Positions 590 to 2,573 of a DNA stretch of 64,000 bases are shown piece after piece (within the stretch, counting starts at the first letter, position 1; every line of letters begins with the position of its first letter). The stretch lies in assembly GCF_003018255.1 (NCBI RefSeq), contig NZ_CP027440.1. One strand, given 5' to 3'. Origin of the DNA: Escherichia coli (lineage in GTDB: Bacteria > Pseudomonadota > Gammaproteobacteria > Enterobacterales > Enterobacteriaceae). The notes under the pieces are model-generated. The model saw only the letters and a program-made list of their open reading frames with translations. It made no database searches and was not told the DNA's origin. Made by a program: the position numbers and the translations under genes.

Positions 590-674
590 GCCGAAGTGGC
601 GAAATCGGTAGACGCAGTTGATTCAAAATCAACCGTAGAAATACGTGCCGGTTCGAGTCCGGCCTTCGGCACCA
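590..674 (+). tRNA. leuX: tRNA-Leu, anticodon CAA
   Basis: 85-nt GCCGAAGTGGCGAAATCGGTAGACGCAGTTGATTCAAAATCAACCGTAGAAATACGTGCCGGTTCGAGTCCGGCCTTCGGCACCA with a CAA anticodon loop, long variable arm and 3' CCA. A P4-type integrase gene follows immediately downstream. Confidence 0.9.
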
Positions 675-716
675 AGTGATGCAATAATTAGCTACCTAAG
701 GGTGGCTTTTTTTGTG

Positions 717-749
717 TCCATTTCCGTCCAAATTCGTCCATATCCGTTT
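717..749 (+). promoter_or_regulatory. Direct repeats TCCAT(T/A)TCCGT between tRNA and integrase start; candidate integrase arm-type or operator sites
   Basis: tccatttccgtcc (717-729) and tccatatccgttt (737-749) seen directly; function inferred from position. Confidence 0.3.
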
Positions 750-896
750 GTAATTCAAAGGTAATTTATTTTTCCACAATAACCATATTTATTTTGTGGT
801 CTTTCCGTGTTGGTCATTTTTCATCCATTGACATCCACGCGATTTGGGGGCCAAATTGGGGGCTTAGACGTAGTTCGATAATAGTGAGGCCCCCAA

Positions 897-2573
897 ATGG
901 CACTAACAGATCGCGCTATAGTCCACGCCAAGCCTTGTGGCAAGCCGTATAAGCTCAGTGACTCGCATGGACTTTACCTGCTGGTTAACCCTAACGGTTC
1001 AAAACGCTGGTACATCAAGTACCGCTTTGTAAACAAAGAGAAAAAGCTCGCTTTAGGCCCTTATCCGCTTTTGACGCTTGCACAGGCAAGACGCATGCGT
1101 GAAGAGGCACAATTATTGCTGATTTCCGGCATCGATCCGAGTGCACGCCGAAAAGCAGAACGCCTTGCGATAACGCCGGAACATACGTTTGAGTCTGTGG
1201 CACGTGAATGGGTCACCAGTAACGTGAACTGGTCGGCGGAACATAAGAAGCGGGTGCTGCGTTATTTCGAGCTTTACGTATTCCCCACGAACGGCAGCTG
1301 TGACATCACCAAAATGAAGGTCAAAGATCTGCTGGTGCCCATCAAGGAAGTGGAGAAAGCGGGCAAACTGGATGTTGCTTCCCGGCTTCAGCAGCGCACT
1401 GCCTGCGTGATGCGCTACGCCGTCCAGAACGGCATTATCGATCATAACCCTGCATCAGATTTAACCGGCGCGGTCTCCACGCCCAAAGTACGGCATCACC
1501 CGGCGTTGGATCTGAATCTTATCCCTGATTTCCTGGAAAGAATCGACGATTACAAAGGCCGTCAACTGACTCAACTGGCGGTAAAACTGGCACTGCTGCT
1601 GTTTATCCGCTCCAGCGAACTGCGCTTTGCCCGCTGGGATGAAATTGATCTGCGTAACGCCATGTGGACCATCCCCGCTGAGCGTGAGCCGATCCCCGGC
1701 GTTAAATATTCAGCGCGTGGGGCGAAGATGCACTCCCCACACCTGGTCCCATTGTCACGTCAGGCCATCGAACTGCTGCACGAGGTGCGGCAGCATTGCC
1801 GACCGGGAACTGAACTGGTGTTCCCCGGCGATCACAATTACCGCAAGCCGATGAGTGAAAACACCATCAACAAAGCGCTGCGGGTGATGGGCTACGACAC
1901 CCAGAAAGATGTCTGTGGCCACGGTTTTCGCACTATGGCCTGTAGCGCGCTGGTGGAGTCGGGGCTGTGGTCAAGCGACGCGGTAGAGCGCCAGATGAGC
2001 CATCAGGAGCGCAAGCGCGTGCGTGCGGCGTATATCCACAAGGCGCAGCATCTCGAAGAACGTTGGGAGATGATGCAGTGGTGGGCGGATTATCTGGATG
2101 CAAACCGGTTCAGGCATGTTGTGCCGTATGGCTTCAAAAAGTCGCCGGGAGGCGCACTCGACCATATGAGTTTCCAGGAGCGCAATGACCGGCAGCTAGA
2201 GGAGCTGAAAGCCAGAATACTGGCTGACTCGGAATGGCTGACGGCGTCTGAATTATCCGCAAAAGCGGGCTTTCGTTCCGCCGATCCTGATGCTGGTCCG
2301 AAAGGCTGGAAAGCCGCCGGGAAGATATTCTCGCTGAAGGTCGATGGTGAGGATTTATACCCTGATTATGTTCTGGATGAGAAAATGCGGCCTCTCAAGG
2401 TTGTCCGTTTGATTCTTTCACTGTTTAAGGAGCGTAAAACACCGTGGGGGCTGGCTATCTGGTTTGGCTCGGCTAATCGCAGGTTGAGAGGTGGGAGGCC
2501 GAAAGACCTGCTGATTTCGAAGTCAGAGTTGGTTCTGATGGCGGCGCAGGAGGAGGTGGAGTCGGGGGAGTAG
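897..2573 (+). CDS. P4-type tyrosine integrase with an unusual ~140-aa C-terminal extension
   Basis: 558-aa ORF starting MALTDRAIVHAKPCGKPYKLSDSHGLYLLVNPNGSKRWYIKYRF, typical P4/CP4-57-type integrase N-terminus with catalytic-domain motifs (HGFR, RAAY). The ORF runs ~140 aa beyond the usual integrase end (...WADYLDANR). Confidence 0.85.
   Translation: MALTDRAIVHAKPCGKPYKLSDSHGLYLLVNPNGSKRWYIKYRFVNKEKKLALGPYPLLTLAQARRMREEAQLLLISGIDPSARRKAERLAITPEHTFESVAREWVTSNVNWSAEHKKRVLRYFELYVFPTNGSCDITKMKVKDLLVPIKEVEKAGKLDVASRLQQRTACVMRYAVQNGIIDHNPASDLTGAVSTPKVRHHPALDLNLIPDFLERIDDYKGRQLTQLAVKLALLLFIRSSELRFARWDEIDLRNAMWTIPAEREPIPGVKYSARGAKMHSPHLVPLSRQAIELLHEVRQHCRPGTELVFPGDHNYRKPMSENTINKALRVMGYDTQKDVCGHGFRTMACSALVESGLWSSDAVERQMSHQERKRVRAAYIHKAQHLEERWEMMQWWADYLDANRFRHVVPYGFKKSPGGALDHMSFQERNDRQLEELKARILADSEWLTASELSAKAGFRSADPDAGPKGWKAAGKIFSLKVDGEDLYPDYVLDEKMRPLKVVRLILSLFKERKTPWGLAIWFGSANRRLRGGRPKDLLISKSELVLMAAQEEVESGE

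What the first reader, a model, noticed from the sequence alone, without database searches (positions are those of the whole stretch)
717..897. Repeat structure between tRNA and integrase start, including an inverted repeat that overlaps the integrase ribosome-binding site
Direct repeats TCCAT(T/A)TCCGT (717-749), a related copy around 800-813, and an inverted pair TTTGGGGGCC / GGCCCCCAAA flanking about 34 bp just before the integrase ATG. These are candidate arm-type integrase sites and an autoregulatory hairpin controlling integrase expression.
Basis: seen in the sequence. Interest (0 to 1): 0.3.

Follow-up and report, generated by a model that had tools for sequence, protein, structure and literature searches.

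The report
P4-type integrase attachment-site arm
The repeats between the leucine tRNA gene and the integrase gene are the integrase-side arm of a phage-P4-type attachment site on a conjugative island, a known kind of element, and the "hairpin" arms are most likely integrase-binding boxes rather than mainly an RNA switch.

Summary
Three 10-bp-phased GTCCAWWWYC units lie at 716-747. A 13/14 inverted repeat (839-852 / 888-901) covers the integrase ribosome-binding site and ATG.

A fourth copy lies 59 bp from the island's other end (attR core 60563-60588).

This layout (two direct boxes 12 bp apart, one inverted box on the int start, boxes on the far arm) matches what the phage P4 GenBank record annotates as "attP arm sequence repeats". 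The integrase is 57% identical to P4 Int and uses the same 20-bp leuX core.

Of 86 relatives, 78 keep the layout. The box sequence differs by lineage and all copies change together.

I read the G-rich boxes as arm-type integrase sites that probably also repress int.

An RNA hairpin role is not excluded. In ICEKp1, deleting stem-loop SL3 (which I infer, from the folded E. coli HPI leader, to be the equivalent element) roughly doubled or tripled reporter output. This island, however, has its own terminator after the tRNA.

Verdict: a new member of a known kind, of modest interest.

The parts
590..674 (+). leuX, tRNA-Leu(CAA). Its last 20 nt (655-674, GAGTCCGGCCTTCGGCACCA) are the attL copy of the att core.
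   Evidence: ARAGORN. The 20 nt are identical to the annotated P4 attP core, NC_001609 4097-4078. Most E. coli genomes stop matching the window at 675.
690..714 (+). Island-borne intrinsic terminator of leuX: stem AGCTACC/GGTGGCT followed by a T run.
   Evidence: Terminator scan. Conserved in the leuX G-box relatives and absent from P4, L031, L004 and L005.
716..747 (+). Core-proximal cluster of three 10-bp-phased GTCCAWWWYC repeats. Candidate sites for the excision factor (RDF, Vis/AlpA type).
   Evidence: P4, L031 and CP4-57 have phased RTCC repeats at the same place. L009 lacks exactly one 10-bp unit.
801..837 (+). Conserved int-proximal block with four phased sites (TTCCG 803, GGTCA 812, ATCCA 823, ATCCA 833). 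It contains the -35-like hexamer TTGACA at 828-833.
   Evidence: Nearly invariant among the leuX relatives, even where the neighbouring spacer has diverged. TTGACA is kept in all G-box lineages that share the conserved block, and P4 has TTGAAA. The simple promoter scan does not call a promoter here.
843..854 (+). Arm box 1, TTTGGGGGCCAA. It is also the left arm of the inverted repeat.
   Evidence: Same position and register as P4 repeat 3965-3954, ATTGGGGGCATA..
855..866 (+). Arm box 2, ATTGGGGGCTTA, 12 bp after box 1. The candidate -10 (CCAAAT, 851-856) lies between the two G runs.
   Evidence: P4 repeat 3953-3942. The spacing is exactly 12 bp in 78 of 86 relatives.
873..882 (+). Invariant GTTCGATAAT element midway between box 2 and box 3. 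Function unexplained.
   Evidence: TTCG[AT]T was present in 80 of 84 loci, whatever the box type, about 15 nt from each box.
886..897 (-). Arm box 3, inverted (TTTGGGGGCCTC on the - strand). It covers the SD GAGG (886-889) and the A of the ATG, and it is the right arm of the inverted repeat.
   Evidence: P4 has an inverted repeat at 3926-3915 on its int start.
897..2573 (+). P4-family tyrosine integrase, 558-aa ORF. The arm-binding domain is aa 3-88.
   Evidence: Pfam Arm-DNA-bind_3, Phage_int_M and Phage_integrase. 57% identical to P4 Int.
51772..51966 (-). Vis/AlpA-family small DNA-binding protein, the candidate excision factor of the island.
   Evidence: Pfam Phage_AlpA, E 1.8e-18. 43% identical to P4 Vis over 58 aa.
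51980..52001 (+). GTCCAGATTC GTTCACATCA: two phased GTCCA-type units directly upstream of the SD of the alpA-like gene.
   Evidence: P4 has GTCC motifs at the same place upstream of vis.
60496..60507 (+). Far-arm (P') box TTTGGGGGCAAA, in the same orientation as boxes 1 and 2, 57-59 bp before the attR core.
   Evidence: It holds the only other TTGGGGGC in the window. Read. Conserved in the diverged right end of strain d1-58. The P4 P' repeats lie 54-77 bp from the core.
60563..60588 (+). attR copy of the core, GAGTCCGGCCTTCGaccttcGCACCA, with a 6-bp internal duplication.
   Evidence: About 2,270 E. coli genomes match only from here rightward. d1-58 has the core without the duplication but one G shorter (19 of the 20 nt).

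Best explanation
Window 675-900 is the integrase-side arm of a phage-P4-type attachment site. It belongs to a roughly 60-kb integrative conjugative element inserted in leuX.

The three G-rich boxes are two direct copies 12 bp apart (843-866) and one inverted copy over the int ribosome-binding site and ATG (886-897). A fourth copy lies 59 bp inside the other end of the island. I read all four as arm-type binding sites for the N-terminal domain of the integrase.

Their first job would be to assemble the recombination complex on attP, attL and attR. Boxes 1 and 2 bracket the -10 region of the only plausible local promoter (TTGACA at 828-833), and box 3 lies on the start of the gene. Integrase bound there should therefore also repress its own gene, as reported for P4 and KplE1.

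The 10-bp-phased GTCCA/ATCCA repeats (716-747 and 801-837) are most likely sites for the island's Vis/AlpA-type excision factor. That factor would bend this arm for excision and could also modulate int.

Any transcript that enters from upstream will also fold the inverted boxes into a hairpin that hides the ribosome-binding site and AUG. I count this as a probable secondary brake, at about 45%.

Shown here: the sequence architecture, its homology to the annotated P4 repeats, the far-arm copy, and family-wide conservation with concerted box change. Inferred: which protein binds which site, promoter activity, and any effect on expression.
For: 1. The P4 record annotates six 'attP arm sequence repeats'. 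Two are direct and abut each other just upstream of int, one is inverted on the int start, and two are on the other side of the core. The window has the same layout, the same 12-bp register and the same GGGGGC core.

2. The integrase has an Arm-DNA-bind_3 domain and is 57% identical to P4 Int. The att core is 20/20 identical to the P4 core.

3. The fourth TTGGGGGC in 64 kb lies 59 bp from attR in the orientation of boxes 1 and 2. It stays conserved in a right end that is otherwise only about 74% identical. No int mRNA or nearby inverted partner exists there.

4. Of 86 relatives, 78 have two direct boxes at exactly 12 bp plus an inverted box, against 5.5% of shuffles. At least five box types occur, and all copies change together.

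5. Different box types occur at the same tRNA, and the same box type occurs at Leu, Phe and Asn tRNAs. This is expected if the boxes are read by a different domain from the one that reads the core.

6. CP4-57 has its own box type (AGGCCCA/GGACCA) on both arms.

7. The window and E. coli C11 are 96-100% identical except for a cassette at about 851-1200, which is 49-74% identical. That cassette is the boxes plus the arm-binding domain.

8. Published: an integrase promoter overlapping attL, with repression by Int and the RDF, is documented for KplE1, reported for P4, and predicted for most tRNA-associated integrases (PMC2951348).

9. For the phased repeats: a lag-10 peak of 218, against 0-17 at other non-harmonic lags, over 69 intergenic regions; an AlpA/Vis homologue in the island with the same motif upstream of it; and a P4-like island RDF that binds att regions near the direct repeats (PMC8844411).
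Against: No binding data exist for this integrase, and none can be produced here.

Only one far-arm box is present, where P4 and CP4-57 have two.

The candidate -10 is weak (3/6) and the promoter scan calls nothing. In ICEKp1 the homologous 161-bp flank had negligible promoter activity, and the authors explain regulation through RNA stem-loops.

Identity of the N-terminal domain does not sort by box type, so there is no clean protein-DNA co-variation signal. The cassette could be a single recombination tract that spans neighbouring sequence by chance.

The 5' flank of box 1 pairs with the AUG region more than flank-shuffled controls do in several lineages. A pure DNA-site model does not predict this.

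Assigning the phased repeats to the RDF rests on analogy and on my recollection of Cali et al. 2004.
Confidence: 0.75

Rival explanations
1. The inverted repeat works mainly as an mRNA hairpin. It would hide the ribosome-binding site and AUG, or attenuate read-through transcripts coming from the tRNA promoter or from a promoter at the other end of the excised circle. On this view the resemblance to integrase sites is secondary.
For: - The RNA 836-905 folds at -29.7 kcal/mol (z -3.9, 0 of 200 shuffles as stable) and encloses the SD and AUG.
- ICEKp1 (PMC13023037): int is transcribed from the tRNA promoter when integrated and from a right-end promoter when excised. Three leader stem-loops attenuate expression, and deleting SL3 raised reporter activity (the text gives a '194.2% enhancement').
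- The E. coli HPI leader (same 161-nt spacer) and L005 each fold into three stem-loops, the third being the box pair.
- The flank of box 1 adds pairing to the AUG beyond shuffled flanks in L031, L005, L011 and L008, and more weakly in P4 and the window.
- P4 Vis is reported to bind int mRNA (PMC2951348 discussion).
Against: - The far-arm box copies in this island, P4 and CP4-57 have no inverted partner and lie outside any int leader.
- A hairpin does not need two direct copies at exactly 12 bp.
- In the other box lineages box 3 ends 14-28 nt upstream of the ATG and upstream of the SD, so masking of the ribosome-binding site is not a family feature.
- RNAalifold finds little covariation.
- This island carries a canonical terminator at 690-714, so the co-transcription premise of the ICEKp1 model is not met.
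- From the predicted local start (about 862) the leader has no significant structure (z -1.55).
Confidence: 0.15
2. The TCCAT(T/A)TCCGT direct repeats are the integrase arm-type sites, and the G-rich boxes are something else.
For: The repeats are real, direct, helically phased and near the core, as arm sites often are. Their RTCC motif also occurs in the core itself (GAGTCCGG).
Against: - The P4 record assigns the arm repeats to the G-rich boxes.
- The phased-repeat motif stays similar across lineages (RTCCA / RTCAAC / RTTCA) while the integrase arm-binding domains and G-type boxes diverge.
- I saw no phased GTCCA-type cluster on reading the far arm.
- The same motif sits upstream of the alpA/vis genes in this island and in P4.
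Confidence: 0.1
3. The phased GTCCA/ATCCA repeats are bound by neither integrase nor the excision factor. Instead they would be host bending-protein sites, or core-type-like half-sites for the catalytic domains of the integrase.
For: - The RTCC motif and the invariant GGTTCGAT element together resemble the two halves of a tRNA T-arm, GGTTCGA/GTCC.
- Ten-bp phasing fits any bending protein.
- The P4 int regulatory region is said to hold a high-affinity IHF site (PMC7286903).
Against: No IHF consensus with up to 1 mismatch occurs in 676-900. The motifs are only 4-5 nt long, so the resemblance to the T-arm may be chance.
Confidence: 0.15

Closest known systems
Phage P4 attP-int region (NC_001609, 'attP arm sequence repeat' features; Pierson & Kahn 1987, Cali et al. 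2004 and Piazzolla et al. 2006, all cited from memory)
   Same: - The same tRNA target and an identical 20-bp core.
- An integrase 57% identical to P4 Int.
- Two direct GGGGGC boxes in 12-bp register upstream of int, an inverted box on the int start, and a box about 55 bp from the core on the other arm.
- Phased RTCC repeats between core and int.
- A Vis/AlpA-type factor encoded elsewhere in the element.
   Different: - The host element is a conjugative island of about 60 kb, not an 11.6-kb satellite phage.
- It has one far-arm box instead of two, and no intragenic box.
- It has its own leuX terminator (690-714) and about 45 extra bp in the arm.
- The -35 is better (TTGACA against TTGAAA), but the -10 is much weaker (CCAAAT against CATAAT).
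- Box 3 lies before the ATG rather than between two in-frame ATGs.
ICEKp1 / HPI int leader with stem-loops SL1-SL3 (Liu et al., NAR 2026, PMC13023037)
   Same: A P4-like integrase lies next to a tRNA. The same three-box layout is present with G-rich boxes (in the E. coli HPI: TTGGTGGTCA, TCTGGGGTCA and an inverted TGACCCCCA on the SD and start). The third predicted stem-loop is the box pair.
   Different: In ICEKp1 the tRNA terminator is displaced and int is co-transcribed with the tRNA. Here a terminator lies between the tRNA and int. The paper treats the element purely as RNA and does not mention integrase arm sites. That SL3 is the box pair is my inference, because the figures are not held.
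KplE1 attL / PintS (Panis et al. 2010, PMC2951348)
   Same: The integrase promoter is embedded in attL. An arm-type site overlaps the -10. Repression by both the integrase and the RDF has been shown, and the arrangement is proposed as general for tRNA-associated integrases.
   Different: It has a different integrase subfamily and different site sequences. The binding sites there are mapped experimentally, whereas here they are only inferred.
CP4-57 intA / alpA of E. coli K-12
   Same: There are two direct boxes at 12 bp plus an inverted box upstream of intA. Two direct boxes lie 70-95 bp from the attR core. Phased GTCC repeats and an AlpA factor are present.
   Different: The box sequence is AGGCCCA/GGACCA and the target is ssrA. 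The integrase is only 30-41% identical, depending on the domain. AlpA is described as an activator of intA (product name; the mechanism is from memory).
Lambda attP arms (P1, P2, P'1-P'3; Xis sites X1, X1.5, X2)
   Same: The logic is the same: a two-domain integrase bridges arm and core sites, arm sites come as direct tandem repeats, and the excision factor binds head-to-tail on one arm (established knowledge; summarised in PMC2951348).
   Different: In lambda, int is not transcribed out of the arm, so the arm sites do not overlap its promoter or start codon.

Membership tests
P4-type attachment-site arm (int-attP module of the phage P4 family) | Tyrosine integrase of the P4 subfamily with an N-terminal arm-binding domain | tested here: met
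   Pfam Arm-DNA-bind_3 (E 1.8e-24), Phage_int_M and Phage_integrase. 57% identity to P4 Int.
P4-type attachment-site arm (int-attP module of the phage P4 family) | Insertion at the 3' end of a tRNA gene, with the core duplicated at both ends of the element | tested here: met
   attL core at 655-674, identical to the P4 core. attR core at 60563-60588, with a 6-bp duplication. The junctions are confirmed by where other E. coli genomes start and stop matching.
P4-type attachment-site arm (int-attP module of the phage P4 family) | Two abutting 12-bp arm repeats upstream of int and an inverted copy at the int start | tested here: met
   Boxes at 843-854, 855-866 and 886-897 (inverted), against P4 3965-3954, 3953-3942 and 3926-3915. 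78 of 86 relatives share the layout.
P4-type attachment-site arm (int-attP module of the phage P4 family) | Arm repeats of the same sequence on the other side of the core | tested here: met
   One copy at 60496-60507, 57-59 bp from the core, conserved in strain d1-58. P4 has two copies.
P4-type attachment-site arm (int-attP module of the phage P4 family) | Integrase (N-terminal domain) binds the repeats | not testable with these tools
   This needs gel shift or footprinting. The only indirect support is the co-swapped cassette of boxes plus arm-binding domain.
P4-type attachment-site arm (int-attP module of the phage P4 family) | An int promoter overlapping the arm repeats, repressed by Int | tested here: inconclusive
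   TTGACA is conserved at 828-833, with the -10 position between boxes 1 and 2. The -10 matches only 3/6 and the scan calls nothing. The homologous ICEKp1 flank had negligible promoter activity.
P4-type attachment-site arm (int-attP module of the phage P4 family) | A Vis/AlpA-family excision factor encoded by the element | tested here: met
   The ORF at 51772-51966 (-) matches Phage_AlpA (E 1.8e-18) and is 43% identical to P4 Vis.
tRNA-promoter-driven int with an attenuating leader stem-loop (ICEKp1 model, PMC13023037) | The island displaces the tRNA terminator, so that int is co-transcribed with the tRNA | tested here: not met
   An intrinsic terminator (7-bp stem plus T7) at 690-714 lies between leuX and int. 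It is conserved in the leuX relatives.
tRNA-promoter-driven int with an attenuating leader stem-loop (ICEKp1 model, PMC13023037) | A stable stem-loop in the int leader next to the start codon | tested here: met
   -29.7 kcal/mol, z -3.9, enclosing the SD and AUG. It forms only if transcription starts upstream of 839.
tRNA-promoter-driven int with an attenuating leader stem-loop (ICEKp1 model, PMC13023037) | A promoter at the far end of the element that reads across attP in the excised circle | tested here: inconclusive
   One consensus-like site, TTGAAT-17-AATAAT, at 60420-60448 (+). It lies in a stretch that is not conserved in d1-58, and any transcript from it would still meet the terminator at 690-714.

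The most novel reading that the evidence does not exclude
The box triad may be a dual-use element. The same nucleotides would serve as integrase arm sites on DNA and, when transcribed, as a hairpin that hides the int start. On this reading, the 'SL3 stem-loop' reported for ICEKp1 in 2026 is the integrase arm-site triad seen from the RNA side.

A second part of this reading concerns specificity. Arm boxes switch completely between lineages that share one tRNA target. The window itself carries a G-box island followed by the remnant of a GCGGGTA-box island at the same core. Box divergence could therefore act as a specificity code that keeps co-resident P4-like elements at one tRNA from excising or capturing each other.
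Probability: 0.3. Interest if true: 0.55.

Novelty: new member of a known kind. Interest (0 to 1): 0.33.

Why it matters
For this window, the analysis fixes both ends of a conjugative island (675 to 60588). It also identifies the cis elements that any excision or transfer experiment would have to keep.

More generally, arm sites of P4-like integrases can be read directly from sequence: two direct 12-bp units plus an inverted unit before int, and matching units inside the far end. The box sequence varies independently of the tRNA target.

The analysis also cautions that reporter effects attributed to an RNA stem-loop in a related island may partly reflect loss of integrase binding sites. That question can be tested directly with compensatory mutations, with and without integrase.

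Tried and rejected
- Tandem Repeats Finder reported nothing, because the units are too short and too few.
- Searching for attR with the tRNA 3' end and up to 3 mismatches failed, because the attR core carries a 6-bp duplication. I found it by reading around the fourth TTGGGGGC.
- Rfam at a permissive threshold found only the tRNA.
- No IHF consensus with up to 1 mismatch occurs in the int-side arm. There is one 1-mismatch site between the far-arm box and the core.
- I asked whether identity of the integrase N-terminal domain sorts by box type. It does not.
- I looked for the phased-repeat motif upstream of alpA-like genes in other lineages. Only vague TTCC phasing appeared, which is inconclusive.
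- Piazzolla et al. 2006 is not held. Several literature searches for P4-like arm sites returned nothing specific.
- I first took L005 for the HPI/ICEKp1 integrase. It is a different asn island. The true HPI locus was then fetched as L093.
- RNAalifold on 12 G-box leaders predicted only the box 2/box 3 G:C pairs, with little covariation. The alignment shifts register between sublineages, so I did not count pairs for the outer helix.
Full report
**1. Observation**

Three units of GTCCAWWWYC start at 716, 726 and 736, exactly 10 bp apart. The '800-813 copy' is TTTCCGT at 802-808.

TTTGGGGGCC (843-852) and GGCCCCCAAA (888-897) are inverted with 35 nt between them. The pair extends to 14-nt arms that are 13/14 complementary. 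The right arm covers the Shine-Dalgarno GAGG (886-889) and the ATG (897-899).

None of this is chance:
- Inverted repeats of this quality are about 0.5 per 64 kb in shuffles.
- [AGT]TCC[AG] occurs 9 times on one strand of 676-900, against 1.55 expected.
- Three of the four TTGGGGGC octamers of the whole window lie within 53 bp.

**2. Context**

The window is E. coli. It is near-identical, but not identical, to strain JNE23-011.

Its order is as follows:
- ahr on the minus strand;
- leuX, tRNA-Leu(CAA), at 590-674;
- an intrinsic terminator at 690-714;
- the repeat region;
- a 558-aa integrase with an Arm-DNA-bind_3 domain;
- AbiE genes;
- a conjugative island with MobH relaxase, TraG, TraD and PFGI-1/SPI-7-type genes.

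Most E. coli genomes stop matching at 675, the end of the tRNA.

**3. Homology to phage P4**

The integrase is 57% identical to P4 Int. The last 20 nt of leuX equal the annotated P4 attP core.

The P4 GenBank record marks six 12-mers as 'attP arm sequence repeat':
- two abutting direct copies just upstream of int (ATTGGGGGCATA, ATTGGGGGCATC);
- one inverted copy on the int start (TGCCCCCAAATG);
- one copy inside int;
- two copies on the other side of the core.

In the same register the window has TTTGGGGGCCAA (843-854), ATTGGGGGCTTA (855-866) and an inverted TTTGGGGGCCTC (886-897).

An alignment of the tRNA-to-int spacers shows that the rest of the arm is homologous to P4 as well, apart from the terminator, which P4 lacks.

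**4. The other end of the island**

Mismatch searches for a second core failed. Reading around the fourth TTGGGGGC (60497-60504) showed GAGTCCGGCCTTCGaccttcGCACCA at 60563-60588. This is the core with a 6-bp duplication.

About 2,270 E. coli genomes match the window only from that point rightward. It is therefore the right junction.

The box TTTGGGGGCAAA lies 57-59 bp before the core, in the orientation of boxes 1 and 2. The P4 far-arm repeats lie 54-77 bp from the core.

In strain d1-58 the right end is only about 74% identical overall. Even so, the stretch from this box to the core is conserved. This copy has no inverted partner and is not part of any int leader, so the motif must act on DNA.

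**5. Family-wide comparison**

A protein-based scan returned 80 loci from diverse, mostly enterobacterial species, with 57-98% identity. I added the E. coli relatives and P4.

The results were:
- 78 of 86 upstream regions have two direct 7-mers at exactly 12 bp plus an inverted copy downstream, against 5.5% of shuffles.
- The box sequence differs by lineage: TTGGGGGC, GTTGGTA, GCGGGTA, TGAGTATA, GAGGGTA, and AGGCCCA in CP4-57. All copies within a locus change together.
- Four or more box types occur at the same tRNA-Leu(CAA). The G-box type occurs at Leu, Phe and Asn tRNAs. Box specificity is therefore uncoupled from target specificity.
- CP4-57 carries its own box type on both arms.
- Box 3 ends 1-3 nt before the ATG only in the G-box lineage. 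Elsewhere it ends 14-28 nt upstream, ahead of the SD, with one locus at 4 nt.

**6. A natural module swap**

The window and E. coli C11 are 96-100% identical from 400 to about 850 and 86-100% identical after about 1200. Between those points they are only 49-74% identical.

The divergent cassette begins at the 3' flank of box 1 and ends after int codon ~100. It therefore holds the boxes plus the arm-binding domain (aa 3-88).

This is what a co-adapted site/reader module would look like. A single recombination tract over adjacent DNA could also produce it. Overall identity of the N-terminal domain does not sort by box type.

**7. The phased direct repeats**

I took 69 distinct tRNA-to-int spacers, excluded the box region, and counted 5-mer self-matches at each lag. 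The count is 218 at lag 10 and 56 at lag 20. It is 0-17 at every other lag from 5 to 25.

The motif is RTCCA here and in P4, L031 and CP4-57. It is RTCAAC or RTTCA in other lineages.

The window has two clusters: 716-747 next to the core, and 801-837 next to box 1. The second cluster contains TTGACA.

The island encodes a Phage_AlpA protein that is 43% identical to P4 Vis. Two GTCCA-type units sit directly upstream of its SD, and P4 has GTCC motifs upstream of vis.

From memory, Cali et al. 2004 reported that Vis binds two boxes between int and the P4 core. In the ROD21 island, the Vis/AlpA-like RDF binds both att regions near the direct repeats (PMC8844411).

I therefore assign these repeats to the excision factor, at about 50% confidence. 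Integrase or a host protein remain possible.

**8. The RNA hairpin**

If transcribed, 836-905 folds at -29.7 kcal/mol (z -3.9), with the SD and AUG inside the stem.

A recent paper on ICEKp1 reports the following (PMC13023037):
- int is transcribed from the tRNA-asn promoter when integrated, because the island displaces the tRNA terminator;
- int is transcribed from a right-end promoter when excised;
- the 161-bp int flank has negligible promoter activity;
- three predicted leader stem-loops attenuate expression;
- deleting SL3 raised reporter activity (the text gives a '194.2% enhancement').

The HPI integrase locus of E. coli has the same 161-nt spacer. It shows the same three-box layout, and its third predicted stem-loop is the box pair. 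L005 behaves the same way. I infer that SL3 is the arm-box triad. The paper does not discuss integrase sites.

A flank-shuffling test shows that the sequence upstream of box 1 adds pairing to the AUG beyond chance in L031, L005, L011 and L008. The effect is weaker in P4 and the window, and absent in L004 and HPI.

Four points argue against a primary RNA role here:
- the far-arm copies;
- the strict 12-bp pair of direct boxes;
- the position of box 3, which varies by lineage;
- the terminator at 690-714, which removes the co-transcription premise.

From the predicted local start (about 862) the leader has no significant structure (z -1.55).

**9. Mechanism**

Shown: the architecture, its homology to the annotated P4 repeats, copies on both arms, concerted variation across the family, and the presence of a Vis/AlpA homologue.

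Inferred:
- The integrase N-terminal domain binds the four boxes to build the recombination complex.
- Boxes 1 and 2 flank the -10 position of a TTGACA-N17 promoter and box 3 lies on the gene start. Bound integrase should therefore repress int. This is documented for KplE1, reported for P4, and proposed as general for tRNA-associated integrases (PMC2951348).
- The AlpA-like factor binds the phased repeats.
- Transcripts entering from upstream fold the box pair and mask the start.

**10. Unexplained**

An invariant TTCGAT (consensus CCGGTTCGATAATG; window 873-882) lies midway between box 2 and box 3 in nearly all loci, whatever the box type. It could be a -10 element, a pseudo-core half-site resembling the tRNA T-arm, or a host-factor site. 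I could not decide between these.

**11. Verdict**

The finding is real and functional. It is a new member of a long-known kind of element, the P4-type att arm with int embedded in it.

Its added value is comparative. Arm boxes of this family can be read from sequence. They vary independently of the tRNA target. A published 'RNA stem-loop' probably coincides with them.

Noticed in passing
window 60590-60790: Directly after the island's attR lies the remnant of a second P4-like int-upstream arm: a terminator, phased TCAAC repeats, decayed GCGGGTA-type boxes and GATTCGATAAT, with the integrase gene itself missing. These are tandem leuX elements that share one core but have different arm boxes. 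In strain d1-58 the downstream element is of the GAGTATA type and has an integrase pseudogene.
   Followed up: partly
window 873-882, and about 76 related loci: An invariant TTCGAT (consensus CCGGTTCGATAATG) lies midway between box 2 and inverted box 3, whatever the box type. It resembles the 5' half of a tRNA T-arm. Its function is unexplained.
   Followed up: partly
window 897-2573: The integrase ORF is 558 aa, about 140 aa longer than typical P4-like integrases. The C-terminal 157 aa have no Pfam match. PGAP calls the gene a pseudogene in JNE23-011 but intact (558 aa) in strain C11.
   Followed up: partly
window 851-1200 versus L002 (E. coli C11): A mosaic cassette is only 49-74% identical inside an otherwise 86-100% identical locus. 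It covers the arm boxes and the arm-binding domain of the integrase.
   Followed up: yes
L093:670-690 (E. coli UPEC132, HPI integrase): The annotated HPI integrase starts at ATA where relatives have ATG. Its upstream region has the same three-box layout with degenerate boxes (TTGGTGGTCA, TCTGGGGTCA, inverted TGACCCCCA).
   Followed up: partly
L029, L030, L034, L038, L046, L085 (Gilliamella): These related integrases lack the box triad. Instead they have an AlpA-like ORF immediately upstream of int, which is a different organisation of the recombination module.
   Followed up: no
window 60420-60448 (+): A promoter-like site (TTGAAT-17-AATAAT) points toward attR. It could read across attP in the excised circle, but it lies in a stretch that is not conserved in d1-58.
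   Followed up: partly
L012-L087, first 40 nt after the tRNA: Most leuX-integrated P4-like elements carry their own intrinsic terminator right after the tRNA (for example GACGTCAACTGACGTCTTTTTTT). This differs from the terminator-displacement model described for ICEKp1.
   Followed up: no
window, about 8-12 kb and 52-56 kb: The window differs from the best database match (JNE23-011) by SNPs in ahr and by two compensating 1-nt indels. It therefore comes from a closely related but different genome.
   Followed up: partly
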